A DNA stretch of 60,369 bases from assembly GCA_964510965.1 (NCBI GenBank), contig CAZECX010000004.1, forward strand, positions 1-60,369, in the 5' to 3' direction. Below are positions 10,668 through 43,860 of the stretch, in pieces. The notes beneath the pieces are model-generated. The model was not told where the DNA came from. It was given only the letters and a program-made list of their open reading frames with translations, and ran no database searches. Numbering within the stretch: the first letter of the stretch is position 1; each line of letters opens with the position of its first letter. The translations under genes and the position numbers were made by a program. This DNA comes from an uncultured Nitrospina sp. GTDB taxonomy: Bacteria > Nitrospinota > Nitrospinia > Nitrospinales > VA-1.

Positions 10668-10676
10668 ATCGGTTTC

Positions 10677-11111: not shown

Positions 11112-11114
11112 CTT

Positions 11115-14336: not shown

Positions 14337-14356
14337 AATTCTCCAAGCCTTTATTA

Positions 14357-28249: not shown

Positions 28250-28293
28250 GTTAATACCTCCATAAATTAAATTGAATGAGGCAGGTTTTAATA

Positions 28294-29613
28294 TCAAAAG
28301 TAAGGCGGCATATGGAGCCAGTAAGCAAGCATTTGCCCTCCAGCAAAAGCAAAGGCTGTCAAACCTGAAAAAAGAACAAAGACACCAGAGTTTTGATTTA
28401 AAGTTTCCAACCAAGCGGGCAAAAGTGCGAAAAGAGCCAGAATCAAAGGTAAAGCCAAGAGAGGTTCATAGATGTTAATGTGAATCACTTCATTTTGGCT
28501 AAAAACAAAAGCCATAGGAATAAATGATCCTATACCCAGCAATAAGGTCGTTTGATGGTCCAAATGTTTCTTTGTCCTTTGATTAAAGAAAATTACGGCA
28601 ATGGTTGCTGAAGTACCCAAAAATAAAAGCACCTTCCATTTTGGTAGCCAAGGAACATATTGAGAAAAAAGTAAATCCCAATGGTTGGAATAATATTGGA
28701 TATCTCCATCCAACCCCGTTCGAAAATTAAGGGAAGAGCCGTCCAGAATAATTTGTGGAAAATTTAGTTTTACCCAAAGAATTTGGCCCGTCATGATAAG
28801 TGCTGCCGGCACTGCAGCAAAAACTACCGATTTAAGAAATTTAAAAATATTGAGCTCTCTAGGGGCGATGATTAAAAAAATAAAGCCGTAGGACAACATG
28901 AAAAAAAATGTAATGTAATGATCAATATAAAACATCAAGAAAACAATTAGAATCCAAATTGTTTTACTCTTTCCATCATATCCTTTCCAGTTAAAGTGAT
29001 TGTCAATCAATAAAAAGAGTATTGCAAAAGTTAACCAAACATGAACCTGATAGAAATCGAAGACGGCCGACAGGTTCATGGGGAAAGTTTGGAAAACAGT
29101 GAGTGCACTTAATCCCAAAGCTAAGGAGTGGAAAGAGGATATTTTCATTTGAAGTGACAAGCGCATTGCTAATAATCCGAGAAGAGCAGAGGAGAGCATT
29201 GGAAAAAACTGGCTATGCAAGGCCATAAGGAAATAATTAAATTTGCCGGTGACTTTTACATGAGCTCTTTGAAGAAGATGAGCCAATTGCAAATATCCCA
29301 TTGTTAATGACTTCCAGACTACTTGTCGAGGATCTTCTTCAGCAGATTTCTTGAAAGCCAGGCCGCCATGGACAAAATAGCCATGGTTGATCCAGACTTT
29401 TATGGAATCGTAATTTAGGGGACGCCCTCTTTTTCTAAACTCCTCTTCAGTACGGTCATGTACCGTATTGAAAAGAAGAATAAAAAGGGCGAAGCTGTAT
29501 AGGAAAATTATTACCAATGGCATTCTTACGTTTGCGCAAAGGTTCTGGCGAAGTTTTTCAATTGAAATTGTCATTTTGGGAAAGCTAGAGAAAAAAACAG
29601 AATGGCTAACCAT
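28294..29613 (-). CDS. Multi-pass membrane protein, possible GT-C-type (lipid-linked sugar) transferase
   Basis: TM1, a large acidic/aromatic loop (DRTEEE...NYDS..WINHG), then many TMs and a second loop; lies beside a GtrB-like GT2. The GT-C call is inference. Confidence 0.6.
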   Translation of the reverse strand: MVSHSVFFSSFPKMTISIEKLRQNLCANVRMPLVIIFLYSFALFILLFNTVHDRTEEEFRKRGRPLNYDSIKVWINHGYFVHGGLAFKKSAEEDPRQVVWKSLTMGYLQLAHLLQRAHVKVTGKFNYFLMALHSQFFPMLSSALLGLLAMRLSLQMKISSFHSLALGLSALTVFQTFPMNLSAVFDFYQVHVWLTFAILFLLIDNHFNWKGYDGKSKTIWILIVFLMFYIDHYITFFFMLSYGFIFLIIAPRELNIFKFLKSVVFAAVPAALIMTGQILWVKLNFPQIILDGSSLNFRTGLDGDIQYYSNHWDLLFSQYVPWLPKWKVLLFLGTSATIAVIFFNQRTKKHLDHQTTLLLGIGSFIPMAFVFSQNEVIHINIYEPLLALPLILALFALLPAWLETLNQNSGVFVLFSGLTAFAFAGGQMLAYWLHMPPYF

Positions 29614-29940
29614 ATTCTAAGTTAAAACTGAGCTGAATGTAAAGTTGTGTCAATATGCCAGCCATAAGGTTCAAGTAAGGTTCAAATACTGTTGAAGATC
29701 TGCTGAATCTGGTATAGTACGAGCAGCAAGGGTGATTGCTAGAATAATGTAGTGACAGAGAGTTTCTTTCGCGCTTTCAGGGTGGGATTGATTCACGGAA
29801 AAACTGACAGTTCCCGCCAGGAAGCCAAATCAGCTATTTATCATAATAAATTAAGTTATTTACCACCTTTTCCGCAAAGGATAAGTAACTTATTCGAAAT
29901 TTAGCTACCTACAGAGGGTATTGGTAAAATAATAATCAAT

Positions 29941-30966
29941 ATGGTCAAACTATATAAGATTAGAAAATTTTTAAAGCATTTAAGCTTTATGAGAAGCCCT
30001 GTGTTGGTTAAAAGGATTTTCCAAGGCTACTACAACAGTTTAATCAAGGGAAAAGATACTCTCCGGTCTATTGAACTGGCTATTGACTATAGATGTCAGG
30101 CAACCTGCCACAAATGCTATTCTGCTAATTTGGGTACCCATTTCCCCAATGCGAATTATGTCAATAAGCCCATGATGACGGTAGATGAGATACGTCGTAC
30201 CGTTGACCAAGCGATGGACTTAGGTTTGATTCATGTAAATATTACAGGTGGAGAACCTACGCTTCGAAATGATCTTGCTGAAATTGTAGAAGCTTGCAGG
30301 CCCAGGGAAATTATGGTGTCGCTCGTTACTAATGCTCTTTCTTTATCTAGAGAAAAACTAAAGACATTAAGTGAACTTGGGCTGAACCTTTTGCAAATTA
30401 GCTTGGACTCCGCCGATGCTAAAACTCATGATGAGTTAAGGGGCGTACCTGGGTGCTACGACAAAGTAATGCAAACAGCTGCTTGGGCTAAAGAATTTGG
30501 AATAAATCTTTGCTTTACCACCGTTCTTTCTACCGAAAGCACCAGTAATGGTAGCGAAACTCGTAAATTGCTGGAAATTGCTGAGCGAGAAAATGCCTAT
30601 CTTCTTATTTGTGACTCCGCTTCAGTAGGGGGATGGGAAGATCAAGGAGAAAAGGTGATGACAAGAGAAGAAAGAGACGAAACGCTTTTTGAGCTAATGA
30701 AGCATCCTCTTACCCGGCACCATAATATGTATAATTTTAGAGGTTCAATCGGGTGTCCCGCTTCGCATGAAAAGGTCTATATCACATCCCATGGCGATGT
30801 GACCCCCTGTAATTTAGTTCATGATAGTTTTGGTAATGTTTTGAGTACGCCATTGTTTGATATTCTTGCGGAGATGCGAAAAGACCCTTTATGGTCCCAA
30901 ACCCATGATACTTGCCCGCGATACTTGGAAGAGGAGTTTGCAACTCGTGGTGGAGTTCCCATATGA
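29941..30966 (+). CDS. Radical SAM protein with SPASM/twitch-like C-terminus
   Basis: CQATCHKC, ITGGEP, LVTNA, QISLDS, C-terminal GCPASHEKVYITSHGDVTPC...C. Confidence 0.92.
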   Translation: MVKLYKIRKFLKHLSFMRSPVLVKRIFQGYYNSLIKGKDTLRSIELAIDYRCQATCHKCYSANLGTHFPNANYVNKPMMTVDEIRRTVDQAMDLGLIHVNITGGEPTLRNDLAEIVEACRPREIMVSLVTNALSLSREKLKTLSELGLNLLQISLDSADAKTHDELRGVPGCYDKVMQTAAWAKEFGINLCFTTVLSTESTSNGSETRKLLEIAERENAYLLICDSASVGGWEDQGEKVMTREERDETLFELMKHPLTRHHNMYNFRGSIGCPASHEKVYITSHGDVTPCNLVHDSFGNVLSTPLFDILAEMRKDPLWSQTHDTCPRYLEEEFATRGGVPI

Positions 30967-31709
30967 ATCAAGACGAATTCGAGGCGATGGATGCTGGCGG
31001 TCCTGGCCAGTGGTGGTACAATGCTAGAGAGAAGTTGTTAGTAAGGGAATTAAAAAAGCTCTCTTTAGATAAACCGAACCTGAGAATTCTTGACTTAGCA
31101 TCTGCATGTGGTGGTAATTTTTCTACGTGCTATAAACACGGAAAAGTTTTTGGTTTAGATATATCTTGGAAATCAATTGAAATCTGCAAAACAAAGGGCA
31201 TCCAAAATCTAGTTCAGGCAGATGCCCAAGAGCTTCCTTTTGTGAATGGATCTATGGATGTGGTTATTGCTCTGGATGTGCTGGAACATTTAGAAAATGA
31301 TTCTGGATCGATGCGTGAGGTTGCCAGAGTTTTAAATAAGGACGGAGTTTTTATATTCAATACGCCTGCCATGATGCAGCTTTTTTCCTATCATGATTTA
31401 GCATTCCACCACTTCAGAAGATACTCTGCTGTTGAATTAAAGAATAAATTAATTAATGCCAATTTGCAGGTAAGCTGGATTACTTATTGGTCTTTCTTTA
31501 TGTTTCCTGTGGTTTATTCTTTTAGGAAGCTAAAAAATTTTTTTAGCAATTCAGAGGACCAGCCATCAAGCGATTTTCAAATGAAGATTCCTGAATTCAT
31601 TGATAATATCTTTCGATTTTTTAGCCAAATAGAGATCTATCTTCTTAAGCGAAAAATGTATCTTCCAATTGGAGTTTCTCTTTTTGGTACGGCACGAAAA
31701 GTTAACTAG
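30963..31709 (+). CDS. Class I SAM-dependent methyltransferase
   Basis: RILDLASACGG motif I, GLDIS, QADAQELPF, ALDVLEHLEND; ATGA overlap with the upstream gene. Confidence 0.88.
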   Translation: MNQDEFEAMDAGGPGQWWYNAREKLLVRELKKLSLDKPNLRILDLASACGGNFSTCYKHGKVFGLDISWKSIEICKTKGIQNLVQADAQELPFVNGSMDVVIALDVLEHLENDSGSMREVARVLNKDGVFIFNTPAMMQLFSYHDLAFHHFRRYSAVELKNKLINANLQVSWITYWSFFMFPVVYSFRKLKNFFSNSEDQPSSDFQMKIPEFIDNIFRFFSQIEIYLLKRKMYLPIGVSLFGTARKVN

Positions 31710-31715
31710 TTTGTT

Positions 31716-32675
31716 ATGAAGCAATTCTCTGTGATCCTTCCTCTAATGAATGAGGAGGAGGTATTTGAAGAATTATACTCGAGAGTGAAGGAAACCATGG
31801 ACTCTTTGGGTGCTTCTTATGAAATTATTTTTGTGGATGATGGAAGTGACGATTCCACGGGCAAGTTGATTCTGGAATATAGTAAGAAAGACCACAGTAT
31901 TATAGGGGTACTGCTTTCAAGAAACTTTGGCCAGGATAATGCAATTTTGGCAGGCTTAAAGGTCGCTGAAGGACAAGATATCATATTGATGGACGGAGAT
32001 CTTCAGGACCCGCCAGAAGTAATTCTAGATCTTATTCGTGAAAAGCAAAAGGACTATGATGTAGTTTATGGAATAAAGACAGATAGGAAAGAAGGGGTAA
32101 TGATTAAAGGAATGACCTCTATGTTTTATCAGTTTATGTTTTTTTTGTCAGGAATTCGAATGCCAAGAAATGTTGGAACATTTTCGATTTTTTCCCGACA
32201 GGTTGGAAATGCAATAATACAATTTCCGGAGTCAAATAAATTTTTCAGTGGGCTCAGATTCTTTGTGGGTTTTAAGCAAGTAGGAGTTTTTTATGAAAGG
32301 GAAAGGAGAGTTCAAGGGAAATCAAAATCCTTTATTTCCTTGGCCAGGATGGCGATGAATGCAATTTTTTCGTATACCATTTTCCCGATGAGACTGGCCA
32401 TACTTTTTGCTTCAATTCTAACAATTTTAACAGGGTTTGTTTTACTGCTTTATATTTTTCAAGCCATAATAGGCTCCCAAACATTTATTGATTTATCATT
32501 GTTTTTTGAGCCTTTTACAATTTTGGTTTTAGGCATGATATTAATGATTTTGATTGTGATTGCAGAGGTTGTGGGTCGCATTGATGCTCAGGTGAAAAAG
32601 AGACCTGAATATATTGTCAAATCAATAATTCGAAATGGGGCAGTTGATATTGGAGCTCCATTTGTCTTGCATTAA
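31716..32675 (+). CDS. GT2 glycosyltransferase, GtrB/ArnC-like polyprenol-phosphate sugar transferase
   Basis: VILPLMNEEE, FVDDGSDD, LSRNFGQ, MDGDLQDPPE, two C-terminal TMs, KRPEYIV. Confidence 0.92.
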   Translation: MKQFSVILPLMNEEEVFEELYSRVKETMDSLGASYEIIFVDDGSDDSTGKLILEYSKKDHSIIGVLLSRNFGQDNAILAGLKVAEGQDIILMDGDLQDPPEVILDLIREKQKDYDVVYGIKTDRKEGVMIKGMTSMFYQFMFFLSGIRMPRNVGTFSIFSRQVGNAIIQFPESNKFFSGLRFFVGFKQVGVFYERERRVQGKSKSFISLARMAMNAIFSYTIFPMRLAILFASILTILTGFVLLLYIFQAIIGSQTFIDLSLFFEPFTILVLGMILMILIVIAEVVGRIDAQVKKRPEYIVKSIIRNGAVDIGAPFVLH

Positions 32676-32720
32676 ATGCAAACTGATTTTTAAAAAGCAA
32701 ACCATTTTATAGGCAGTCCT

Positions 32721-34325
32721 ATGAGAATTACATTTGTAATGATGGGTTGGGAAAACCTTTCCGTCCAATATATATCCTCATATTTGAAAGAACGTGGGCA
32801 TGAAGTACGGCTTGCTTATGATCAATCTCTGTTTGAGGATAAAAATTATTTATCAATGCCGTTTTTGGCTCGCATTTTTGATCAGGGAGACAATATTGTC
32901 AAACAGGTTATTGACACAGAACCGGATTTGGTATGTTTTTCTGTTATGTCTGTTACCCACCAATGGTCACTTAAGACAGCCGAGGAAATTAAGAAATACA
33001 TGAATGTCCCCATATTGTTTGGTGGCATCCACGCTATAATCTGCCCGGAAGAAATTATTGCAAAAGACCAAGTGGATATGGTTTGTCTGGGTGAAGGTGA
33101 ATATGCTCTGGCCGATTTATTGGATAGCATGGAGAAGGGGGCGATAGATAAATCATTAGATGGGTTTTATTTTAAAAAAGCAAATGGTGAAGTTATCAGG
33201 AACAAAAAGCGTGGCCTTATTGCTGACATGGACACTATGCCTTTTCCTGATAAAGAGCTTTTTGCTCCATTTATTCCGATTAAAAATTACTACCTGGCAG
33301 TGACTAATAGAGGCTGCCCTTTTTCATGTTCCTATTGTTCTGTTTCTGCGCAAGATGCTGTTGAGAAAGATTTGGAAAACTTTAAAAAAGTGAGAGAGCG
33401 CAGTGTAGATAATGTTTTGGAAGAACTTAGAATCAATAAGGCTAAATACGGCTATAAATGGATTGATTTTAGAAACCCAGTTTTTTCTCCTTCAAAAGAT
33501 TGGATATTAGAATTTTGTGAGAAATATAAGGAACAAATAAATGTTCCCTTTCGTATTTTCAGCCATCCTTTGCTTATAAGGGAAGACACCTCTATAGCTT
33601 TGAAAGAAGCAGGATGTTTTGCTATTCAAATGGGCCTTGAATCTTATGATCCTGATGTCAGAAATAAATTCTTGCATAGGATAGAGACAAATGAGCAAAT
33701 TAACAAGGCTATAGGAATAATGGAGAAAGTTGGAGTTACTTATTCCATGGATTATATCCTCAATCTTCCAGGTCAAGAAGAGCCGGAACTCATAGAAGTT
33801 GGTAAACTTTTTTCAGGGTTGAAATATCTTTACAGGGTTTCTCCATTTTTGTTGACATATCTCCCTAAATTAAAAATTAACGAATACGCAATGCAAGAAG
33901 GGGCGTTGGATCCCAAAGAAGAAAAAAATATCAACCAAGGGCTCCAGGGAAGCTATATGGATATTGGCTCCGATATGGAAAAGAATAGAAGAAAGCTAAT
34001 GCAAACGTATAAGCTATTTTTTAGATTAATGAGCTTTATGCCCAGGTGGATGAAGCAGTTAACTTTTAAAACAAAGATTTATCATATGTTTTATTATTTG
34101 CCCTTTGATTTTATTCTGAGGCTTTTTGATTTAAGCATGGTATTTCGTGATTATGATGCTAATGCTTATGCGCGTAATTATTGGTGGTGGTTTTCAAAAA
34201 GGTTCAACTCTAAGCATCCGAGCTACTTTTTCAATAACCTAAAGGCATTTAGAGGGCCCAATGATCCCCCCAAAAATAGGAATTCTATCAAGCTAAGTCT
34301 TGCCGAAGATCGTTCCCTTCTGTAA
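32721..34325 (+). CDS. Cobalamin-binding radical SAM protein
   Basis: N-terminal B12-binding domain (QYISSYLKERGHEV; LFGGIHA..CPE; GEGE), RGCPFSCSYC, QMGLES. Confidence 0.92.
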   Translation: MRITFVMMGWENLSVQYISSYLKERGHEVRLAYDQSLFEDKNYLSMPFLARIFDQGDNIVKQVIDTEPDLVCFSVMSVTHQWSLKTAEEIKKYMNVPILFGGIHAIICPEEIIAKDQVDMVCLGEGEYALADLLDSMEKGAIDKSLDGFYFKKANGEVIRNKKRGLIADMDTMPFPDKELFAPFIPIKNYYLAVTNRGCPFSCSYCSVSAQDAVEKDLENFKKVRERSVDNVLEELRINKAKYGYKWIDFRNPVFSPSKDWILEFCEKYKEQINVPFRIFSHPLLIREDTSIALKEAGCFAIQMGLESYDPDVRNKFLHRIETNEQINKAIGIMEKVGVTYSMDYILNLPGQEEPELIEVGKLFSGLKYLYRVSPFLLTYLPKLKINEYAMQEGALDPKEEKNINQGLQGSYMDIGSDMEKNRRKLMQTYKLFFRLMSFMPRWMKQLTFKTKIYHMFYYLPFDFILRLFDLSMVFRDYDANAYARNYWWWFSKRFNSKHPSYFFNNLKAFRGPNDPPKNRNSIKLSLAEDRSLL

Positions 34326-34466
34326 CTGAGGAAAGGAAAGTTTGGCAGTTAGACTGCACGTTTACCGCCTTAGGTTTTTATAAGGATATAACCCTATTCA
34401 ATAGGGTTTATGACTGATCAAATCAACGGTTTTTTCAAGCTCTGCTTTTATAGGAGTAATTAAGGC

Positions 34467-35528
34467 ATGTCTTCCGTTTTTAAGACCCTGTATAACGGGC
34501 GAAAATCCCTGGCAAAACTTATAAAGGCCAAAGTTACGGGGCAACGAATCCCAGTAAGGGTTTGTTTACTTGTAACTAAGTATTGCAATTTAACCTGTTT
34601 CTTTTGTTATGCAGAAGACATTCTGAATTCAAAAGCCGTTCAGGAATATTCTTTAGACAATATCAAGAATATTGTTGACCAGTTGTATGAAGCTGGATGC
34701 CGCCAGATTACTATTGTTGGAGGCGAACCCCTTATTCGGGATGATATTGGAGATATCATAGATTACATCCATAACAAAGGAATGTTTGTTGAGATGACCA
34801 CGAACGGCTATTTTGTAAAAAAAAGAATCAAAGCCCTTAAAAAAGTGGACCACTTATGCATTAGCCTAGATGGCAATAAAGAATCGAATGATGCAAGTCG
34901 CGGTGAAGGTTCATTTGAAAAAATTATAGAAGGAATCATTTGTGCATCAGAGAATGGAATAGCCGTTAGAGTGCACGCTACGCTTTCAAAGATAACTAAC
35001 AATGAAGAATCTCTTAAATTCTTATTGGAATTTTGTAAAAGAATGGATGTCAAGCTGAATATCTCAGAGATCAGTCTGCCAGGCATCGAACAAAAAGATT
35101 CTAAGTACCTTCTTTCAAAGGAGGAAAGCAGAAATTTTTATGAAGTTTATAGAGGATTTAAAAAGTCTGGATACCCTATAGCCAGCTCGTACATGGCCAT
35201 GGATTATGTCGAAAAATGGCCTTTGGGTGATGAGACTACCCTGTATAAAAAGGACCTTGATAAAGTTTCCAAGGATAGTTACTTTCCATGCACGTTTGGC
35301 AGAACTCAGGCCTTTGTCAGTGCTGATGGAAATGTGTATTCCTGCACTAAAAAGTGGGGAGACGGTAAGAACATGCTTGAAGTCGGATTCGACAAAGCTT
35401 GGGAATATTTTGAGGATTTGGATTGTGTGGCCTGTAAAGAGTTGGGTTGCATTGAGCAAAGTGCTATTACCAATCTTGCATTCCGGACCTTATTTAATAC
35501 GTTGAAGAATTTTGCTATGATGAAATAG
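34467..35528 (+). CDS. Radical SAM protein with twitch-like C-terminus
   Basis: CNLTCFFC, VGGEPL, MTTNG, CISLDG, C-terminal PCTFG...DGNVYSC...CVAC. Confidence 0.92.
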   Translation: MSSVFKTLYNGRKSLAKLIKAKVTGQRIPVRVCLLVTKYCNLTCFFCYAEDILNSKAVQEYSLDNIKNIVDQLYEAGCRQITIVGGEPLIRDDIGDIIDYIHNKGMFVEMTTNGYFVKKRIKALKKVDHLCISLDGNKESNDASRGEGSFEKIIEGIICASENGIAVRVHATLSKITNNEESLKFLLEFCKRMDVKLNISEISLPGIEQKDSKYLLSKEESRNFYEVYRGFKKSGYPIASSYMAMDYVEKWPLGDETTLYKKDLDKVSKDSYFPCTFGRTQAFVSADGNVYSCTKKWGDGKNMLEVGFDKAWEYFEDLDCVACKELGCIEQSAITNLAFRTLFNTLKNFAMMK

Positions 35529-35638
35529 CAAAAAAATATTGTATTTCCTGCCATTGCCTGAAGTTTTCTCACGCATGGAAACCTCACTATAGTCCCTAAT
35601 CTGTATGAACTTTTTCACATTAACTTAAAGAATGCTGA

Positions 35639-36451
35639 ATGAATTCCTTACAATCATGTCTTAAGGGAAAGTCAATTTTGATTACAGGGGCTTCAGAAGG
35701 CATTGGTCTTGCGATAACTGAAACACTTAGTAGTTTTGGAATGAAAATGGGATTGTTGGCTCGTTCCGAAGAAAAACTTATAAAAATAGCCGCTCGGGTA
35801 AATTCGGTTGGAAGTGAGGCTTTTATTCTAAAGGCAGACTTGAGCGATCGCAAAGAAGTGGAAGATGCTGCACGAAAATTCGAAGAGGTACACGGTGTCC
35901 CCGATTTTTTAATAAATAATGCGGGTATCGGTCTCAGGGGATTTTGGAAGGATATAGATTTGGATGCAGAGCTAAAAGTTTTATCCGTTAATTTTACTGC
36001 CCCATTAATTCTAATTCGCTACTTTCTACCAGCAATGTTGCAAAGAAACAGCGGTCATATAATAAACATCAATGCCTTTGGAGGGATGTTCTCGAACCCC
36101 TATCAAGGCGCCTACGGCGCAAGTAAATCAGCTCTCCTTTTTTACGCCTCAAGCCTTGCGTATGAACTTGAAAATACAAATGTGCAAATCTCCTCGATTA
36201 TTCCTGGCGCTATAAATACAGATTTTCTCAACCAGGCAAACTACGAAGTATTCAAAAACCGTTCCGATATTGTATCCCCAAAAGTGGTAGCAGAAAAAGT
36301 GTTGGAGACAATCAAAAAACCTAGAGAAATAGCTTACGTGGGGCCAGCATGGAAAAAAATCGCAATAAAAGTCATTAACTTGTATCCCGAATTCTTTCGA
36401 AAAATTGTAGAAAAGGGGAATATTCCTCCCTCGTCAACTTCAAAAAACTAA
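35639..36451 (+). CDS. Short-chain dehydrogenase/reductase
   Basis: ITGASEGIG, LINNAGIG, YGASK catalytic YxxxK, IPGAINT. Confidence 0.93.
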   Translation: MNSLQSCLKGKSILITGASEGIGLAITETLSSFGMKMGLLARSEEKLIKIAARVNSVGSEAFILKADLSDRKEVEDAARKFEEVHGVPDFLINNAGIGLRGFWKDIDLDAELKVLSVNFTAPLILIRYFLPAMLQRNSGHIININAFGGMFSNPYQGAYGASKSALLFYASSLAYELENTNVQISSIIPGAINTDFLNQANYEVFKNRSDIVSPKVVAEKVLETIKKPREIAYVGPAWKKIAIKVINLYPEFFRKIVEKGNIPPSSTSKN

Positions 36452-36551
36452 ACCGGGTAAAAATAATCAAGCTCCAGAGGTTACCTATCACAGGCCACCT
36501 TTTTCTATTTTATCCAGAGGGAGACTAAATTATAATCCGGTTTTTTGGTTT

Positions 36552-38120
36552 TTAATGCCGGCAAAACCCTCTAAATTGCTTGGGAACATAGCACATGCTA
36601 ATAGCATTTTTGCTAAAAATTTTTTTGATCTCTTCCTCTTTTTTACCTCCTTGGGGTACTAGTCCGAGATTGCAACCGGCTTCTAATAGTACTTGTGGCC
36701 CGTCGATGAAAGGAAAAAACGCATCCGCGGCAAAAACAGAAGACTCCATTGAATGGCCTTGTTCCTGAGCCCGGCACACAGCATTCCGGATAGCGATGAT
36801 CGTTGATGGTCCTCCCCCCAAGCCAACCAATTGTCTACCCTTTACAAGAGCCACCTCGTTACCACCTAAATTAGAACTCCAAACCGTCGCCCATGCCAGA
36901 ATCAGAGATTCGATTTGTTCTTTAGAAGGATCTTCTCCTACCCAATAAGAACTTTTCAAATCCAAAATATAATTTGCTGGAGGCTGGCGGATCATTCCAC
37001 CGCGAACCCACCGTAAACCCCAAGGTTGGTTTGGCAGCATTGGATCGACCAAAGTCTTATTTCTAAAAATTTTCCTGTTTTTCCGTTGTGAAAGAGTTTC
37101 GACTGCATACGGAGAAAAGGAAGGTGCCACTACTACATCCAGCATCCAATTCCTTGTGCCAAGCATTTCTTGTCTAACAGAGCTGTCAATAAGCAAATTA
37201 ACTAGGTCATCGGTTATGGGAAAGTTACAAATGAACTCCCCTCCCCAAACTGCCTGAGGATTTCCAAATAGAGCATTTTCCAAGGCAACTGCAGGGTCTT
37301 TCCAGTCGATGGCAAAACCACAAGGGTTGCCATGCTTGGAGGCGATAGCCAGAAAAGGGGATTGCCTAAATTCCTTTTTAAATGCCTCATGAGCCAGGCA
37401 CAACGTCTGGAGAATGCTATCTAAATCGGCCAAATTGGTAAAACAGGGTGCCTCCTTTCCCAACAATTCAAACTTGTGAAGGGATAGCGGATCGTTGTCA
37501 CCAAAATCCGAAAAAAGATGACAGGGGCTCTGATAAGGGTTTTCCCCACTTGATAGTTCTAGGTTTTTAATGCTAACGATACCTTCACCAAAAGAATCTT
37601 GCTGCTGTAAAAGTTTTACGTAATGAGCGGCAATATGAACAAGGGTTTTGTTTGTAAATTCCGCCTTCAGGGAATCAGAGACTTTTCCATTCACTTTAAA
37701 TTCCCCGATGCATCGTTCCATATCGGTATAGGACATAATGGGAATCCTATTACCCTTTACCGCAAGAGCCAAAAGCGTATGTCCACCTACATCATTGCCC
37801 TGGTCAAGCGAATATGGGATATCGAAAAGCAAATCAATTCTCTTGTCAGTCTGTTCTAAGGTCAGTGCTGATTCAATCTTGGGGTGCAGAGTTGGTGGAA
37901 ACCCGTAATCTTCAGATATGCCAACAAACGATTCAATGTCAATGCAGGGAATTTGAATTTCTTTTAACAATGGGGTGGTTTCTTTTGTAGATATGATCTC
38001 CCAACCCAATTGATGTAAACTCCGTGCAAATTCCTTAACCTGGGTGGTGTTGGATAAAGAAAATAATGCTCTCAATAAATCCCTCCGGTCATCCCTCAAA
38101 TGTCCCTTCTGATAGACCAT
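36552..38120 (-). CDS. Divergent PurH-like protein (degenerate MGS/IMPCH domain + AICAR-transformylase-like domain)
   Basis: RALFSLS, TLHPKI, SGENPYQ, KHGNPCG, DVVVAPSF, AADAFFPFIDG retained; canonical STGGT and GRVKTLHP replaced by STKET and GFPPTLHP. Confidence 0.82.
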   Translation of the reverse strand: MVYQKGHLRDDRRDLLRALFSLSNTTQVKEFARSLHQLGWEIISTKETTPLLKEIQIPCIDIESFVGISEDYGFPPTLHPKIESALTLEQTDKRIDLLFDIPYSLDQGNDVGGHTLLALAVKGNRIPIMSYTDMERCIGEFKVNGKVSDSLKAEFTNKTLVHIAAHYVKLLQQQDSFGEGIVSIKNLELSSGENPYQSPCHLFSDFGDNDPLSLHKFELLGKEAPCFTNLADLDSILQTLCLAHEAFKKEFRQSPFLAIASKHGNPCGFAIDWKDPAVALENALFGNPQAVWGGEFICNFPITDDLVNLLIDSSVRQEMLGTRNWMLDVVVAPSFSPYAVETLSQRKNRKIFRNKTLVDPMLPNQPWGLRWVRGGMIRQPPANYILDLKSSYWVGEDPSKEQIESLILAWATVWSSNLGGNEVALVKGRQLVGLGGGPSTIIAIRNAVCRAQEQGHSMESSVFAADAFFPFIDGPQVLLEAGCNLGLVPQGGKKEEEIKKIFSKNAISMCYVPKQFRGFCRH

Positions 38121-39406
38121 TCCGTTCCATGGTCTCCGTTAATGGAGGCGATTTCGACTTCCGAGGATGGCCCAGAGTCATCACTGAACGACTCCATCTT
38201 TTTTATGACCGTGTAGATCTCATACAGCCCTCGGTAAAAAGGCAGGGCCTTGTCAAAATTACTCATTATAACTTCATCGTTTAAGCCTATACCTCTGGGG
38301 CAATCCTGATGAGTTTTTATGCATTTGTACTTGTACGTTCCTTGGTCGTCTTGCATTACATTGTATTGAACCGCAAAGGAAGTATTGGGGCAACACACGC
38401 CGGCGGTTTGTCGATCAGGGGATAGAAAAGCCAGTTGCCCGCCGTGGTAAAGGACATAAAAATATGGATAAGCGACATGAAATGAAGTATAGCAAGGAAT
38501 TCCCGATGCTTTAATCAACTCGTCAACGGAATACCATTGATCAATTTGGACGGGAAAATCAAAATCCCCCATGGTGCGCTTCAATTTGACTTGGGTGCTA
38601 TATTTATCGCAAAGTTTATCATTGATATGCTTGGCATCAGTAGGCTTGTCTAAAATAGAAAAAGTGACTTGTGTTCTGTAGTCTGGACACCCAGCGACAA
38701 AATTATTATTTTCAATATCCAGGTAAGGGTAAATGGAGGTAAATGCTGCTGGGCAGAGTTCATCTCTCTTGTCCAGGTTAAAATAAAAATCATGGTCTCG
38801 AGTGATTCCAATAAGGCAACCCTTGCCTTCATCCACGGCCTTAATATGAATATCCTTGTCAGGAATTTCAACAGGCATTATAAAATTTAGGATCCATCTA
38901 AGAATATTCTTAAAGTATACCCAGGGGTTGAATTTTCTTTTTGAGGAGTAAATCCTGAAGCTCACTCCATCGGACCCTAGAGGGCAGGAAATTATTTCCC
39001 CGGCAGGATTCATTTTCAGTTTTGACTTATTCTGATTGCAATGCAGGGCCAACAGTGTCGGATAAAGATTCAAAAAAGCTGCGGGGCACATGCCTTGGCT
39101 GAGAAGGCTGACTTGCTTGTTATCTGAATTCAATGGATGGTAACGGCACCTGTTGTCGGTAGCATCGTATACAAGTTTCAGTCCCTTCTCCTTTTCTTCG
39201 GCCATCCTTGCACATAAGGGGTGACTTGAAACTTCTTTGTTGGTTATTGTCGACATATTACTGAAGAAATGCTCATAAAAGAGTAGTAAGCAATTTTTTA
39301 AATTATCACAAATATTTGTTATCAATTCAAGGACAACAGGTTTTTGATCCAAATCCCGACATAGCAACTGGATGCTGCAGGTCAGCGTTTTATATTCATA
39401 GGGCAC
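38096..39406 (-). CDS. Cys-rich protein with three tandem TIGR04076-like domains
   Basis: Repeats MCPAAFLNLYP...SCPLGSDGVSF, LCPAAFTSIYP...GCPDYRTQVTF and PCYTSFHVAYP...CCPNTSFAVQY. Family assigned from memory of the motif. Confidence 0.68.
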   Translation of the reverse strand: MPYEYKTLTCSIQLLCRDLDQKPVVLELITNICDNLKNCLLLFYEHFFSNMSTITNKEVSSHPLCARMAEEKEKGLKLVYDATDNRCRYHPLNSDNKQVSLLSQGMCPAAFLNLYPTLLALHCNQNKSKLKMNPAGEIISCPLGSDGVSFRIYSSKRKFNPWVYFKNILRWILNFIMPVEIPDKDIHIKAVDEGKGCLIGITRDHDFYFNLDKRDELCPAAFTSIYPYLDIENNNFVAGCPDYRTQVTFSILDKPTDAKHINDKLCDKYSTQVKLKRTMGDFDFPVQIDQWYSVDELIKASGIPCYTSFHVAYPYFYVLYHGGQLAFLSPDRQTAGVCCPNTSFAVQYNVMQDDQGTYKYKCIKTHQDCPRGIGLNDEVIMSNFDKALPFYRGLYEIYTVIKKMESFSDDSGPSSEVEIASINGDHGTEWSIRRDI

Positions 39407-39451
39407 TCATAAATTTACGAAGAAAAGACATGCAATCTAATTTTTTAAGGC

Positions 39452-40807
39452 CTATTTTAAAAAAAAATATATTTTTTTCGCGATTCCATATGCTGGATGC
39501 TCGTAATTATATGGTAATAACCTTTTCGCAAAATTTTTAGAAGTTGTTAAGAACATTTCGTAAAACCGTTCTTTGCCAATTCTTTTATTATATATCTTAA
39601 AGTACTCCTCAAGTTCTTCAATGGATTCTGCTCTTCCATTATCAGCATACTTTGTAACATAATAATCAAAATCTCCTTCGTAAAGGGATCTCATGTTGTG
39701 CAAAGTAGTTTTCATAAAGTTTCCAATTAACAAGTCATCAAAAATTTCATAATTTACTGCTTTCATCAAACTATTTCGGGGAGCTTCGAATGTAATCCCT
39801 TTATTTTTTTCTCCCTTTAGTTTGATAAAATTATCCTTATTTCCCACTCGGAAATTTATGAATGAAATAAACTGATTGACTTTTTCTTTTCTAGAAAAAT
39901 AGTCACTAATCCTGTTTAAGTCCTTTTGATTTAATTCTTCGGTCCAATCGTCGCCAAAAGTTTTAGAGTCCAATTGCTCTATCAAATTTTTTTCGACCTC
40001 AATCTGATGGATTTCACCATTCGAACAATTTACAATTGCGAATGGCGGAATATATTCTAAATCTTCATGGAATTTAATAGAATAGGCATCTATTGGGGTT
40101 GTGTATTTGTTTGTCCAAATGGAATCGTTTCTTTGGTATATATGGAAGGAACTAAAGGGAATTACACTATTTAAACCGAGAGATTTAGCATATAAAGACA
40201 AATCATTTCCAACATGGGTATTTTTTAATGCAATAGGTTCAATGAAATCTCCATTTTCATCATAAAAATTGATCATATCTGCGTCACCATATCCTGATAG
40301 CGTCAGCAAAAATTTTTTCCGATAATTCTTGGATATTTTCTTGATAATTCCAGTGCAACCTTTATCCCCAGCATCATTAAGATTTACAAATAAGTACCCA
40401 TTTATATCAACTAAAAGAATTGCGTTTTGAGTTACTGTGGTGATGCAAAACACCTTTATCTTTCCTGAAAGGTTTACCCACTTTCTGTCAGGAAGTATTC
40501 CTACATCAAAACCTTTTTGTTCAAGCCCGTCTTTTATTCTACTCCCTACGTGGTCCGGCAAAAGAATTTTATTGCTTTTGAAGCGTTCAATGCTGGAAGG
40601 ATTTAAATGATCTGGGTGTCCATGAGAAAACCAGATAAATTCTGCATTATGGATATCATTCTTTATTGGAGTAGGTATTTTATGAGACAGGTTCCAACTC
40701 CCAAAATACGCATCATCTTCCTCTCCAAACCAAGGATCTGTTGCCAAGATGCATTTCTTTTCATAAGCTACCAAAGTTGCATTTCCTATTGTTTTAAGGT
40801 GTGGCAT
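39452..40807 (-). CDS. MBL-fold metallo-hydrolase/oxygenase (UlaG / CMP-Neu5Ac-hydroxylase-like core)
   Basis: LATDPWF...YFGSWNLSH, FSHGHPDH metal motif, NLNDAG, IPFSSFH. Confidence 0.78.
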   Translation of the reverse strand: MPHLKTIGNATLVAYEKKCILATDPWFGEEDDAYFGSWNLSHKIPTPIKNDIHNAEFIWFSHGHPDHLNPSSIERFKSNKILLPDHVGSRIKDGLEQKGFDVGILPDRKWVNLSGKIKVFCITTVTQNAILLVDINGYLFVNLNDAGDKGCTGIIKKISKNYRKKFLLTLSGYGDADMINFYDENGDFIEPIALKNTHVGNDLSLYAKSLGLNSVIPFSSFHIYQRNDSIWTNKYTTPIDAYSIKFHEDLEYIPPFAIVNCSNGEIHQIEVEKNLIEQLDSKTFGDDWTEELNQKDLNRISDYFSRKEKVNQFISFINFRVGNKDNFIKLKGEKNKGITFEAPRNSLMKAVNYEIFDDLLIGNFMKTTLHNMRSLYEGDFDYYVTKYADNGRAESIEELEEYFKIYNKRIGKERFYEMFLTTSKNFAKRLLPYNYEHPAYGIAKKIYFFLK

Positions 40808-41174
40808 GATTCCATCTCTCCCCTGGTTCCTTTGTCGGACTGTTGGAAATTTAAAACTTGAGAATAATTTTGCCTCAAGATTTTTTGAATATCCCTTTTA
40901 CAAAAGCTCATTTGTTTTGCTTTGAAAATTTTGGTGGTCTTTTTTTTTCACAATTTACTTCAGGCTCAGACACATCTATAAATTATACCTTCATTGGCGG
41001 GGCAATGATTATTATCAAACGTTCCAAACTAAACGCAATTGTTTCTTCACTTGGAAAGCAAGTCCTTTGAACATTTATGTGTTTAAGAGTCACAGGGTAA
41101 ATATTTTCTGAGACTGAGAGCAGTTTTCTCCAATAACCTTTATCAGCAATCTCCTTAATGTGGTATGAGGGGGG

Positions 41175-41402
41175 TTAAGCAGGAGGGCTAGTTTCGCCGT
41201 ATTCGTTGAGTTTGTTACGTAGGGTGCGGATGCTGATTCCTAACGAGTCGGCAGCTTTTGTTTTGTTGCCGTTGACCTCTTCGAGGGTCTGCATGATGAG
41301 TTCCTTTTCCATTTCATAGATAGTTCCCGACAATCGCGGAGCCCCTTTTTCCTTGGAGTGCAATTCTTCATCGAAGAACAAATGCGATGGCAATATCGTA
41401 TC
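41175..41402 (-). repeat. Second copy of the 228-bp direct repeat (intact gene end)
   Basis: ~94% identical to 26258-26485, same orientation. Confidence 0.95.
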
Positions 41403-42551
41403 GTCCTGACACATCAGGCAGGATCGCTCAACAATATTCCCAAGTTCACGAATATTTCCCGGCCAACGATATTTTTTGAGCAGGGTTAGGGTTGCTGAAT
41501 CTATCTTTAAGGGAGATTTGTTATTTTCCTGACAAAACTGATGGATAAAATTATCTACGAGAACGGGAATATCATCGATTCTTTCTCTTAAAGGAATGAG
41601 GTTAATTGGAACTACGTTCAATCTGTAATAAAGGTCTTCACGAAACTGCTGATCCTGAATACGTTTTCGAATATCGCGGTTGCTGGTAGCGATGACTCGG
41701 ACATCTACCGGGATGGGCATTCGGCCGCCAATTTTATCGATTTCATGTTCCTGCAAAACGCGCAGTAGTTTGGCCTGCAATGGTAAGGACATTTCTGTTA
41801 CTTCATCAAGAAGCAATGAGCTGTTGTTTGCCATTTCAAACTTTCCTTCTTTGTTTTCAGTTGCACCGGTGAAGGAACCTTTTTCATGGCCGAACAGTTC
41901 TGATTCGAGCAAACCTTCTGGCAAGGCGGCACAGTTTACCGCCATGAAAGGTTTTTCTGAACGTGGACTGCATTGATGGATATAACGTGCGAACAGTTCT
42001 TTTCCCGTTCCAGTTTCACCCATGATGAGAACGGTTGACTTGCTGTATGAAACATTTTCGGCAAATTGCAGGAGCTTTTTCATTTCCTCATTCTGTGTAA
42101 CGATTCTTTTCATCTCTCCCAAAGTTTCCATTTGCGGGGAGGGACGAGGAACAGGAGGGGTGAAGCTGCCAGGGTCTAAAAATGCACGTTTTACTGTTGA
42201 AACCAGTACGTCTGCAGAAAAACCCGAACCTTTTATTAAATAGTCAAAGGCTCCTTCTTTCATTGCCTCAACAGCATTGTCTATTGTTCCATAGGCCGTC
42301 ATCATCACGACTTGAGTTTCGGGAGATTTTTCTTTTACTGCGCGCAACAATTCCAGTCCATTTATTTTTGGCATGCGAACATCGGTGAGAACGAGATCGA
42401 AATCATCGTCTTCCATTTTTTCTAATGCCCGTTTTCCATCCTCGGCACAGGTGAGCTGAAATCTTTCCCTTTTTAATGTGGTCTCTAATGCCACACGCAT
42501 TTCGGATTCGTCATCAACGATCAGAATTTTTTTAGATTCATTATTTTTCAT
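41175..42551 (-). CDS. Sigma54-dependent response regulator (REC-AAA-HTH), FleR/FlgR-like
   Basis: ILIVDDE, LTDVRMP, GETGTGKE, ESELFGHEKGSFTGA, FREDLYYRLNV, WPGNIREL, Fis-type HTH; start overlaps the kinase stop. Confidence 0.93.
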   Translation of the reverse strand: MKNNESKKILIVDDESEMRVALETTLKRERFQLTCAEDGKRALEKMEDDDFDLVLTDVRMPKINGLELLRAVKEKSPETQVVMMTAYGTIDNAVEAMKEGAFDYLIKGSGFSADVLVSTVKRAFLDPGSFTPPVPRPSPQMETLGEMKRIVTQNEEMKKLLQFAENVSYSKSTVLIMGETGTGKELFARYIHQCSPRSEKPFMAVNCAALPEGLLESELFGHEKGSFTGATENKEGKFEMANNSSLLLDEVTEMSLPLQAKLLRVLQEHEIDKIGGRMPIPVDVRVIATSNRDIRKRIQDQQFREDLYYRLNVVPINLIPLRERIDDIPVLVDNFIHQFCQENNKSPLKIDSATLTLLKKYRWPGNIRELGNIVERSCLMCQDDTILPSHLFFDEELHSKEKGAPRLSGTIYEMEKELIMQTLEEVNGNKTKAADSLGISIRTLRNKLNEYGETSPPA

Positions 42552-43812
42552 CGAAATCCTCATCCCAACATGGGATTTTTACTGTGAACGAAGTGCCTTT
42601 TCCCTCTTCACTGAATGCGTCTATCGTGCCTTGATGGGCCTTTATGATGTTGTGGGAAATCGCCAAACCGAGTCCGGTTCCTTTATCTTTCGTGGTGAAA
42701 AAGGGATTAAAAATTTTCGCAAGATTATCCGATGACATGCCAATGCCACTATCGGCTACTGTTACGGAAATATATTGACGTGTTGCAGAACCATTTTCCG
42801 AGCTTGAAGAAACAGAAGATTTTTCTGTGATGAGGCTCAACTCTCCACCGTCGGGCATAGCCTGGATCGCGTTATTGATAAGATTAGGGAATACCTGGCG
42901 CAATAGTTCCCGATCGCCATTAGCCAGCAAAGTTCCCTGACTGGATTTGCGTGTCACATTAACATTTTCTGGGACATGAACATTATTGATTCCCTCCAGA
43001 CATTCGGTGAGCAATAGGTTGATATCACATTGTTGGCGCGACGGCTGCGCGGATTTTGCGAATAATAGCAGGGTCGAAATGATGCGATCCATATTTTGCA
43101 CTCCGGATCGGATATGCTGAACCAGATTTTCTTTTTCAGTGTCTCCTTCAAGATCTTTTTTTAGAAGGGAGGCAAACAATTCGATGCTGCCTAAAGGATT
43201 CCTGATTTCATGTGCGATGCCTGCTGCCATTTCCCCCATCTCTCGCAGCCTTTGATTACGCTGTGCAAGTTCCTCCATCTTTCGGAACTCGGTCATATCT
43301 TGCAGGATTAAAATAGTGCCAATCTGACCTCCGTGGTTATCCCAAACGGGGGAGGCAGAGACCCGGACATGTAAAGTTCCTCCTTTTTCGTTGGGGATAT
43401 CTTTGTCCTGACTGATGGTTTCGCCGCGATTTTTCCCCAGTTTGGCGACAACGGGTTCAAATAATGGAAACACTTCTTTTAAAGTATTTCCCAGGCAGCT
43501 TTGTGGTTTGATCCCGGTTAGAGTCCCGGCAGTTTTATTATAAGTAGTAATGATTCCTGCGCGATCAACGACGATGACGCCATTGGTCTGGCTTTCGAGA
43601 ATATCGTTAAGATAATTTTTTACTCGCTCTTTCTCTGCCAGGTTTTTTTCCAGTTCTTCATTTTTATCGGATAGTTCAAGGTCAAGTTTTTTAACTCTAC
43701 CCTGAAGTTCATCGTAGGAATTTTGTAGCTGTGCGGTGACTTCGTTAAAAGCCTCCATATTCTGGATGAGGGTCTGGATTTCTTTACTTTTTTTACCGCC
43801 TGGGTTTGTCAT
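42541..43812 (-). CDS. Cytoplasmic coiled-coil-PAS histidine kinase, FleS/FlgS-like
   Basis: No TM; PAS ([13 protein letters not shown]), [40 protein letters not shown]. Confidence 0.92.
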
Positions 43813-43860
43813 AGGAAGGATAGCAGTGGGTTTCCAATCTATTTCTATTATAAATTAAAA

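What the first reader, a model, noticed from the sequence alone, without database searches (positions are those of the whole stretch)
38096..39406. Protein built from three tandem TIGR04076-like Cys domains, overlapping the PurH-like gene
Seen: three C-(P/Y)-xx-F-xxx-YP ... C-P-x-(5-6)-V-x-(F/Y) units plus extra Cys, and a 25-nt overlap with the PurH-like start. Recalled: TIGR04076 proteins are usually small single-domain proteins of unknown function linked to redox/Fe-S metabolism. Inference: a multi-cluster Fe-S carrier or electron donor dedicated to the three radical SAM enzymes.
Basis: partly seen in the sequence, partly recalled or inferred. Interest (0 to 1): 0.65.

Follow-up and report, generated by a model that had tools for sequence, protein, structure and literature searches.

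The report
Cysteine-rich repeat protein in radical-SAM cluster
A real, conserved 386-residue protein made of TIGR04076-type repeats with three predicted cysteine metal sites always sits in radical-SAM sugar-tailoring gene clusters, usually just upstream of a PurH look-alike lacking the cyclohydrolase site, and neither the metal nor the function has been shown.

Summary
The repeats are real.

Two details are ORF-calling artefacts:
- The gene most likely starts at ATG 39256 (386 aa), not GTG 39406.
- The PurH-like gene most likely starts at TTG 38075 behind a GGAGG. That gives a 20-nt spacer, not a 25-nt overlap.

The protein is a duplicated two-domain unit with a degenerate fourth repeat. Loss patterns across about 137 remote relatives group the conserved Cys into three inter-domain sites:
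- C57/C91/C147
- C37/H40/C168/C190
- C255/C289/C319

The family is rare: 253 clusters among 1.84 billion proteins, mainly Nitrospinaceae and Omnitrophota. It has no solved-structure relative and no functional literature.

In all 13 related loci plus the window it lies beside radical SAM genes. Each locus also has either an SDR or a DUF362-ferredoxin, and fusions to both exist. In 10 loci plus the window a PurH paralogue is adjacent or nearby. That paralogue keeps the transformylase Lys-His motif but has lost the cyclohydrolase motifs.

Best reading: a multi-site metalloprotein, probably Fe-S, acting as accessory or redox subunit of an undescribed sugar-tailoring module. "Dedicated electron donor to three rSAMs" is only partly supported.

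The parts
38096..39256 (-). Corrected gene for the TIGR04076-repeat protein ('T3x'). It is 386 aa, starts at ATG 39256 and stops at TGA 38096-38098. It is soluble, with no predicted transmembrane segment.
   Evidence: AF2 model: pLDDT 81.7, pTM 0.87.
39257..39406 (-). A 50-codon extension of the longest ORF (GTG 39406), most likely untranslated leader and promoter. It holds a promoter-like TTGAAT-17-GATAAT with an upstream TG at 39330-39302.
   Evidence: Homologues lack the extension. L006 has in-frame stops there. The promoter scan is no richer than shuffled sequence, so that part is weak.
38921..39181 (-). Repeat 1 (residues 26-112), type 1. It carries C37-R-Y-H40, C57-P-AAF..YP and C91-P.
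   Evidence: E 7e-4 to TIGR04076 profile positions 35-87.
38642..38881 (-). Repeat 2 (residues 126-205), type 2, the near-full canonical domain. It carries G-C147, C168-PAAF..YP and C190-P-D192.
   Evidence: E 4e-4, profile positions 2-86 of 91.
38321..38629 (-). Repeat 3 (residues 210-312), type 1'. It carries C216-D-x-Y, C255..YP, the GGQL motif and C289-P-N.
   Evidence: E 6e-3.
38099..38320 (-). Degenerate fourth repeat (residues 313-386), type 2'. It keeps only the first Cys (C319-P-R-G-I). The positions of the other two Cys are now Ala/Ser.
   Evidence: Half 1 against half 2 is collinear over 126 columns (E 3.8e-4). Repeat 2 against the C-terminus gives E 1e-3. C319 is conserved in 42 of 42 aligned remote relatives.
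38076..38095 (-). A 20-nt spacer between the T3x stop and the probable PurH-like start, containing GGAGG 6 nt before TTG 38075.
36552..38075 (-). PurH paralogue (507 aa from TTG 38075). The AICAR-transformylase motif KHGNPCG is kept (codons from 37337). The IMP-cyclohydrolase motifs are degenerate.
35639..36451 (+). Classical SDR (adh_short), a conserved member of the module. Relatives of T3x are fused to such an SDR.
34467..35528 (+). Module radical SAM enzyme (Fer4_12 + Radical_SAM). It has CxxxCxxC at C40/C44/C47 and four further invariant Cys (C275, C293, C320, C323), which suggests an auxiliary cluster.
29941..34325 (+). Rest of the convergent operon: rSAM/SPASM (29941-30966), class I methyltransferase (30912-31709), GT2 of the polyprenyl-phosphate sugar transferase type with C-terminal transmembrane helices (31716-32675), and B12-binding rSAM (32721-34325).

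Best explanation
The gene encodes a soluble cytoplasmic protein made of two tandem copies of a two-domain TIGR04076-type unit. The fourth domain is degenerate.

Its conserved cysteines form three inter-domain ligand sets:
- alpha-1: C57, C91, C147
- beta-1: C37, H40, C168, C190
- alpha-2: C255, C289, C319

I read these as three metal sites, most likely Fe-S clusters, and the protein as the accessory or redox subunit of a conserved, undescribed tailoring module. That module combines a radical SAM enzyme with an auxiliary cluster, a dehydrogenase/reductase (an SDR here, a DUF362-2x[4Fe-4S] protein in other lineages), and usually a PurH paralogue that keeps only the transformylase site. It sits among methyltransferase, B12-rSAM and polyprenyl-phosphate glycosyltransferase genes, so its product is probably a modified sugar destined for the cell envelope.

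Shown: the repeat architecture, Cys conservation and co-loss, gene linkage and the fusions.
Inferred: metal binding, the identity of the metal, the electron-relay role, and the sugar as substrate.
For: Family and architecture:
- TIGR04076 match above the cut-off, in three stretches.
- Internal duplication of a two-domain unit.
- A genome where the protein is split into two 2-domain genes directly upstream of the PurH-like gene (L016).

Ligand-like behaviour:
- Ten invariant Cys in 27 homologues.
- In 69 remote representatives: C37 64/64, C168 69/69, C190 53/53, C255 44/44, C289 44/44, C319 42/42. H40 is replaced by Cys in 7.
- Of 10 representatives lacking C57, 9 also lack C147 and 6 lack C91 as well, while C37/H40/C168/C190 stay.
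- This grouping also explains why C319 survives in the degenerate repeat and why C216 is the least conserved Cys (33/42).

Linkage:
- Radical SAM genes lie within a few genes in all 13 related loci examined, as in the window. The Fer4_12-type orthologue is seen in 12 of them; the short contig L015 shows only a B12-binding rSAM.
- An SDR or a DUF362-Fer4 protein is also present in all of them.
- A PurH-like gene is adjacent or near in 10 of them.

Fusions: 5 SDR-repeat fusions and 1 repeat-DUF362-ferredoxin fusion. The gene overlaps or abuts a DUF362-Fer4 gene in L010, L013 and L014.

The number of sites varies between relatives (2, 3, 4 or more domains), as in electron-relay proteins. The module rSAM carries 7 invariant Cys.
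Against: - No metal content is known for any TIGR04076 protein. Only two papers mention the family, and neither is functional.
- There is no CxxCxxC ferredoxin motif and no Pfam hit.
- Two of the three sites have only three Cys.
- A Zn(Cys3His)/Zn(Cys3) reading fits the sequence equally well.
- SDR fusions and the tight coupling to a non-redox transformylase are not what a one-electron donor for rSAMs would predict.
- Cys geometry in the AF2 model could not be inspected, because no coordinates are returned.
- In the window the rSAM genes are on the other strand.
- The alpha-1 site is dispensable in several lineages.
Confidence: 0.4

Rival explanations
1. Zinc-stapled scaffold. The Cys3His and Cys3 sets bind structural Zn that holds the domains together. 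The protein is a non-redox adaptor that assembles the SDR (or DUF362 protein), the PurH paralogue and the rSAM into one complex.
For: - A Cys3His set with His/Cys interchange is classic for Zn.
- The sites lie between domains.
- The isolated domain does not fold confidently (pLDDT 51.7), whereas the whole protein does (pTM 0.87).
- Fusions and adjacency to three different enzyme types suit an adaptor.
- The host lineage Nitrospinaceae is aerobic (own knowledge).
Against: - Structural Zn sites usually use CxxC knuckles. Here most ligands are single Cys 20-35 residues apart, each followed by Pro.
- Association with ferredoxin domains and rSAM-rich clusters points to Fe-S.
- The two organisms named in papers as carrying TIGR04076 proteins (Methanobrevibacter, Bilophila) are strict anaerobes (the anaerobe classification is own knowledge).
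Confidence: 0.25
2. The repeat protein is itself an enzyme. Its three-Cys sites carry a cluster or Zn with one open coordination position, which binds the substrate made by the SDR or rSAM. One possible role is the step that the PurH paralogue's dead cyclohydrolase domain no longer performs, or a dehydration/reduction as in IspH-type enzymes.
For: - Two sites have exactly three Cys.
- Non-Cys residues are strongly conserved: N160, D192, R282, R321, GGQL.
- The gene sits directly upstream of a transformylase-only PurH paralogue in most loci.
- Fusion to an SDR suggests consecutive steps on one substrate.
Against: - The number of sites varies between relatives, and the alpha-1 site is lost in some. 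That is unusual for a catalytic centre.
- The protein also occurs without a nearby PurH-like gene (L004, L013-L015).
- There is no similarity to any known enzyme fold.
Confidence: 0.2
3. Strict first-reader version: a dedicated low-potential electron donor whose only role is to reduce the [4Fe-4S] clusters of the three radical SAM enzymes of this window.
For: rSAM genes accompany the gene in every locus. Ferredoxin-domain fusions exist.
Against: - The set of rSAMs varies from 1 to 6 between loci.
- Only the Fer4_12-type rSAM recurs across loci (12 of 13).
- The genes are convergent, not co-transcribed, in the window.
- Closer links exist to the PurH-like gene and the SDR.
- No source of electrons (flavoprotein) is encoded in the cluster.
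Confidence: 0.12

Closest known systems
NCBIfam/TIGRFAM TIGR04076 family (uncharacterised Cys-containing domain, 91-position model)
   Same: The whole protein scores above the curated cut-off, and TIGR04076 is the only family hit. The same three Cys positions occur per domain. JGI names the homologues 'uncharacterized repeat protein (TIGR04076 family)'.
   Different: - Each repeat alone scores only 17-21 bits, below the cut-off of 33.
- There are four repeats of two alternating types, one of them degenerate.
- The ligand sets are shared between neighbouring domains.
- The gene context is specific.
- The family has no known function, so membership explains little.
Polyferredoxins / 2x[4Fe-4S] ferredoxin domains (Pfam Fer4 families)
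   Same: Several Cys-ligated sites lie along one polypeptide and their number varies between relatives. The protein is found next to, or fused with, true Fer4 domains and next to radical SAM enzymes.
   Different: There is no CxxCxxCxxxCP motif and no Fer4 HMM hit. The secondary structure of each repeat is different (beta-beta-alpha-beta-beta). Metal is unproven.
Bifunctional PurH/ATIC (AICAR transformylase / IMP cyclohydrolase), for the coupled downstream gene
   Same: PF01808 matches at 1e-28. The full-length alignment to solved PurH structures covers both domains. The catalytic Lys-His motif KHGNPCG is kept in 120 of 120 paralogues.
   Different: - Scores are far below the equivalog cut-offs: 167 vs 402 and 126 vs 528 bits.
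- Cyclohydrolase motifs are uniformly replaced: GRVKTLHPK to GFPPTLHPK, STGGT to xxxET, SVSDK to SLxDT.
- The gene lies in glycan-type clusters, not purine operons.
Radical SAM + SDR sugar-tailoring pairs (e.g. AprD4/AprD3 deoxygenation) and the Arn pathway (formyltransferase, ArnC-type GT2, ArnT-type GT-C). Comparison from my own knowledge.
   Same: The module pairs an rSAM with an NADP-type SDR. It also holds a formyltransferase-like enzyme and a GT2 whose best NCBIfam hits are PgfS and ArnC. GT-C type membrane proteins (YfhO, PMT_2, GT87) occur in related loci.
   Different: None of those systems contains a TIGR04076-type protein or a PurH-type transformylase. An aminotransferase is seen in only one related locus. 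No orthology to the named enzymes was found: all scores are far below cut-offs.

Membership tests
TIGR04076 family (NCBIfam) | Whole-protein HMM score at or above the curated cut-off (33 bits) | tested here: met
   46.7 bits, E 3.5e-12, 3 stretches.
TIGR04076 family (NCBIfam) | A single repeat reaches the cut-off on its own | tested here: not met
   20.0, 21.0 and 17.1 bits for the three segments. The protein passes only as the sum of its repeats.
TIGR04076 family (NCBIfam) | Conserved Cys positions of the domain: first hairpin, helix N-terminus (C-P-x-x-F) and last hairpin (C-P) | tested here: met
   These positions are invariant in alignments A1 and A2 and conserved in remote representatives.
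   386 aa with 3 intact repeats and 1 degenerate repeat. Relatives listed cluster at about 180-210 and 350-400 aa.
Ferredoxin-type Fe-S proteins (Pfam Fer4 clan) | CxxCxxCxxxCP motif / Fer4 HMM match | tested here: not met
   No Pfam family at E<=1. The Cys are spaced 20-35 residues apart.
Fe-S or Zn metalloprotein (general) | Bound metal or cluster | not testable with these tools
   Only indirect evidence: conservation, His/Cys swap and co-loss of triads.
Bifunctional PurH (TIGR00355 / NF002049), neighbour gene | Equivalog HMM cut-off | tested here: not met
   125.6 vs 528 bits and 166.7 vs 402 bits.
Bifunctional PurH, neighbour gene | AICAR transformylase Lys-His motif (KHxNPCG) | tested here: met
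   SKHGNPCGFAI in the window. The motif is present in 120 of 120 paralogues.
Bifunctional PurH, neighbour gene | IMP cyclohydrolase motifs (SVSDK, TGGT, GRVKTLHP) | tested here: not met
   SLSNT, STKET and GFPPTLHP in the window. They are uniformly degenerate in the 120 paralogues.

The most novel reading that the evidence does not exclude
The repeat protein is the founding member of a new class of Fe-S protein fold, with clusters held between alternating domain types. Together with the transformylase-only PurH paralogue and the auxiliary-cluster radical SAM enzyme it forms a new multi-enzyme system, widespread in Omnitrophota and Nitrospinota. That system would make an undescribed (possibly formylated or heterocycle-bearing) sugar for the cell envelope.
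Probability: 0.25. Interest if true: 0.8.

Novelty: new variant of a known kind. Interest (0 to 1): 0.55.

Why it matters
TIGR04076 is an HMM-defined family with no experimental function, no solved structure and almost no literature.

This work gives it a testable anatomy: a two-domain unit and three inter-domain ligand sets, with named residues to mutate. It also gives it a reproducible functional neighbourhood.

The linked PurH paralogue (at least 398 clusters) is annotated either as true PurH or as hypothetical. Its cyclohydrolase site is dead, so automatic purine-pathway reconstructions for Omnitrophota and Nitrospinaceae MAGs may be wrong.

If the module makes a new envelope sugar through radical chemistry, it opens new enzymology in largely uncultured phyla.

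Tried and rejected
Searches that led nowhere:
- PDB sequence searches with the family profile (0 hits) and with a single-domain profile (best E 0.9, noise).
- Foldseek of the full model against PDB: best hit PCNA, E 6.5e-3, TM 0.10, which is noise.
- AF2 of one isolated repeat: pLDDT 51.7, too poor to fold-search.
- Word-indexed homologue search with the single-domain alignment found only one protein.
- Literature searches for TIGR04076/CHP04076 and for PurH paralogue + radical SAM + glycosyltransferase found nothing functional.
- Rfam scan of 28000-41500 for a riboswitch (e.g. ZTP) ahead of the PurH-like operon: no match at E<=1.
- Transcript evidence: only two subsurface DNA metagenome runs hold the region, and no RNA run does.

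Ideas rejected:
- RiPP precursor or Cys-rich rSAM substrate. The protein is 386 aa, confidently folded and conserved end to end.
- Recent DNA-level tandem duplication. The repeats are only 17-34% identical at protein level.
- The upstream MBL-like gene as part of the module. It has no homologue in any related locus and a deviant GC content.
- Orthology of the cluster to hopanoid genes HpnH/HpnJ/HpnI. All scores are far below cut-offs.
Full report
**1. What is at the coordinates**

The longest minus-strand ORF is 38096-39406 (436 codons, GTG start). In the numbering of the 386-aa protein these are C57-PAAFLNLYP...C91-PLGSDGVSF, C168-PAAFTSIYP...C190-PDYRTQVTF and C255-YTSFHVAYP...C289-PNTSFAVQY.

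NCBIfam TIGR04076 is the only family hit: E 3.5e-12, 46.7 bits against a curated cut-off of 33, in three stretches. Pfam gives nothing at E<=1. Each third scanned alone again hits only TIGR04076, at E 7e-4, 4e-4 and 6e-3. At 17-21 bits each repeat is individually below the cut-off. Profile-profile comparison of the three repeats, using sub-alignments of 26 homologues, gives E 1e-5, 7e-4 and 1.5e-3. The repeats are real and ancient, at 17-34% identity.

**2. Gene boundaries**

Twenty-eight homologue clusters were found. They are 370-404 aa long (one weaker hit is 348 aa), and the public call for this very sequence is 386 aa. In the 82%-identical Nitrospinaceae relative L006 the region upstream of the equivalent ATG carries four in-frame stops. 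The gene is therefore 38096-39256. The four Cys of the 50-codon extension are not protein. A promoter-like TTGAAT-17-TG-GATAAT lies inside the former extension, but the scan as a whole is no richer than shuffled sequence.

The 25-nt overlap depends on the ATG at 38120 of the PurH-like ORF. Three points argue against that start:
- All homologues align only from residue 18.
- In L006 that ATG frame runs into TAG at codon 4.
- A TTG at 38075 lies 6 nt behind GGAGG and opens the conserved N-terminus M-R-A-L-F-S. TTG or GTG is used at the same position in L001, L003, L005, L006 and L008.

The public gene call uses another TTG (515 aa). That start would overlap the T3x stop by 2 nt. Either way the two genes are tightly coupled, but the 25-nt overlap is an artefact.

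**3. Architecture**

The first half (residues 26-205) aligns collinearly with the second half (210-386) over 126 columns (E 3.8e-4). Repeat 2 aligns with the C-terminal 84 residues (E 1e-3). The protein is thus a duplicated two-domain unit:
- type 1, with C-x-x-H;
- type 2, with G-x-C-P-x-G;
- type 1';
- a degenerate type 2' that keeps only C319 (C-P-R-G-I).

Two independent observations support this. Proteins of about 180-210 aa made of one such unit are common among relatives. In L016 two such small genes stand where T3x stands elsewhere.

AF2 with the family alignment gives a confident compact model: pLDDT 81.7, pTM 0.87. Each repeat is beta-beta-alpha-beta-beta. An isolated repeat is not modelled confidently (pLDDT 51.7).

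No relative exists in the PDB, by sequence or by fold.

**4. The cysteines**

Ten Cys are invariant in 27 homologues down to 34% identity, together with H40.

A profile search of 1.84 billion representatives finds 253 clusters at E<=1e-3. The best 150 hits are returned with sequences. Among the 69 returned representatives of 330-410 aa, the same Cys are kept wherever aligned. H40 is replaced by Cys in 7 of 64, which is a ligand-type interchange.

Losses are correlated (checked by eye):
- Among 137 representatives covering repeats 1-2, 10 lack C57.
- Of those 10, 9 also lack C147 and 6 lack C91 too.
- C37, H40, C168 and C190 stay in those sequences.

This groups the ligands across domain boundaries: alpha-1 = C57/C91/C147 and beta-1 = C37/H40/C168/C190. 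By homology, alpha-2 = C255/C289/C319.

The grouping explains two otherwise odd facts. C319 survives in the degenerate repeat (42/42). C216, the orphan of a lost beta-2 site, is the least conserved Cys (33/42).

I infer three metal sites. The metal itself is not shown.

**5. Context**

Related loci come from Nitrospinaceae and Omnitrophota. Only four loci were found in 185,579 species genomes. The loci examined:

| Locus or loci | Arrangement |
|---|---|
| L001, L003 (L009 is the same place), the P0009 contig, L005, L006, L007, L008 | The PurH-like gene follows immediately on the same strand |
| L016 | The split pair of small genes precedes the PurH-like gene |
| L010 | A radical SAM gene lies between the two |
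| L011 | The PurH-like gene is two genes away |
| L004 and the short contigs L013, L014, L015 | No PurH-like gene seen |

Every one of these 13 loci has a radical SAM gene within a few genes. In 12 it is an orthologue or relative of the window's Fer4_12-type enzyme 34467-35528, at up to 65% identity in distant loci. L015 shows only a B12-binding rSAM. The Fer4_12-type enzyme has CxxxCxxC plus four more invariant Cys.

Every locus also has either an adh_short SDR or a DUF362 + 2x[4Fe-4S] protein, and the two appear to be alternatives.

Six long relatives were examined:
- Five are N-terminal SDR fusions (P0109, P0133, P0139, P0148, P0159).
- One is fused to DUF362-Fer4 (P0075).

DUF362 belongs to the same Pfam clan as the LarA N-terminal domain (PMC11770544).

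Recurrent further neighbours are class I methyltransferases, B12-binding rSAMs, GT2 enzymes, GDP-heptose-type genes (GHMP kinase, nucleotidyltransferase, SIS, HAD, transaldolase), Glyco_transf_9, and the GT-C type proteins YfhO, PMT_2 and GT87.

In the window the partner genes are: rSAM/SPASM, methyltransferase, GT2 (best NCBIfam hits PgfS and ArnC), B12-rSAM, rSAM and SDR. They lie on the plus strand, 29941-36451, convergent with T3x and the PurH-like gene.

This points to tailoring of a nucleotide- or polyprenyl-linked sugar. That is an inference from family-level annotations.

**6. The PurH-like partner**

It matches PF01808 (1e-28) and aligns over its full length with solved PurH structures, but it is far below the equivalog cut-offs.

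In the window protein, in 8 locus-derived homologues and in the best 120 of at least 398 paralogue clusters:
- the transformylase motif KHGNxCG is always present;
- the cyclohydrolase motifs are uniformly replaced (GRVKTLHPK to GFPPTLHPK, STGGT to xxxET, SVSDK to SLxDT).

It is most likely a formyl- (or related one-carbon) transferase without cyclohydrolase activity. Its substrate is unknown.

**7. Mechanism**

Shown: repeats, ligand-like Cys sets, linkage and fusions.

Most likely (0.4): a multi-site metalloprotein, probably Fe-S, serving as accessory or redox subunit of the rSAM / (SDR or DUF362-Fd) / PurH-like module. The following favour an electron relay:
- The number of sites varies among relatives.
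- Relatives are fused to ferredoxin domains.
- rSAM genes are always nearby.

The following argue against a simple electron donor, and keep the Zn-scaffold (0.25) and catalytic (0.2) readings alive:
- The SDR fusions.
- The coupling to a transformylase.
- The three-Cys sites.
- The absence of any flavoprotein in the cluster.

**8. Comparison with what is known, and novelty**

The protein is a member of TIGR04076 by the curated score. That family is only a sequence model, and two papers merely list it.

I found no earlier description, in the tools and library available, of:
- the four-repeat architecture;
- the inter-domain ligand map;
- the conserved module with a transformylase-only PurH paralogue.

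I rate it a new variant of a known (uncharacterised) kind, with interest 0.55.

Noticed in passing
window 36552-38075 (-): The PurH paralogue family is large: at least 398 clusters at E<=1e-40. It has an intact transformylase Lys-His motif and uniformly degenerate IMP-cyclohydrolase motifs. JGI annotates it as true PurH and NCBI as hypothetical, so purine-pathway calls in Omnitrophota and Nitrospinaceae MAGs may be misled.
   Followed up: partly
L016 8912-10004 (738-kb contig): Two small genes (168 and 179 aa) directly upstream of a PurH paralogue both match the T3x profile (E 1.9e-5 and 1.2e-15). This is a split, two-gene version of the protein. Its neighbours include a 1208-aa PMT_2 (ArnT-like) GT-C and a UDP-glucose/GDP-mannose dehydrogenase.
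   Followed up: partly
window 34467-35528 (+): The module radical SAM enzyme has four additional Cys (C275, C293, C320, C323) that are invariant in 12 of 12 orthologues. This suggests a twitch-like auxiliary cluster. It matches no NCBIfam equivalog; the best hit is MoaA at 104 bits against a cut-off of 325.
   Followed up: partly
window 26698-27819 (+) and 28294-29613 (-): Two divergently oriented paralogous membrane proteins (30% identity, E 1e-34) with at least 7 hydrophobic segments each and no Pfam or NCBIfam match. They flank the cluster and could be the glycan-transferring (GT-C-like) partners of the GT2.
   Followed up: partly
window 39452-40807 (-): A 451-aa protein with a weak metallo-beta-lactamase-fold match (E 0.009). 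Its GC content is 0.33 against 0.415 for the window, and it has no homologue in any related locus. It is probably an unrelated insertion upstream of T3x.
   Followed up: partly
L007 and L008 (same Nitrospinaceae MAG, JAPYPM01): One genome carries two copies of the T3x / PurH-like / rSAM / SDR module, each about 50% identical to the window's.
   Followed up: no
L017 (Patescibacteria contig, 11.8 kb): Here a PurH paralogue with the same degenerate cyclohydrolase motifs stands without any T-repeat gene. It lies near a nucleoside phosphorylase and a phosphoribosyltransferase, so the paralogue may not always need the repeat protein.
   Followed up: no
window 30912-30966: The rSAM/SPASM ORF and the methyltransferase ORF (TTG start) overlap by 55 nt in the longest-ORF list. 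As with the PurH-like gene, this may be a start-codon artefact.
   Followed up: no
window 10002-15949 (-) and 41175-46449 (-): Flagellar genes (FliF, FliG, FliH, FliI-type ATPase) lie 12 kb from the cluster. Immediately beyond it lie a two-component pair (response regulator 41175-42563, sensor kinase 42541-43812) and a large TPR-like protein (43861-46449); these three were read from the translations only, not scanned against family models. Whether the tailored sugar decorates flagellin or another envelope polymer is open.
   Followed up: no
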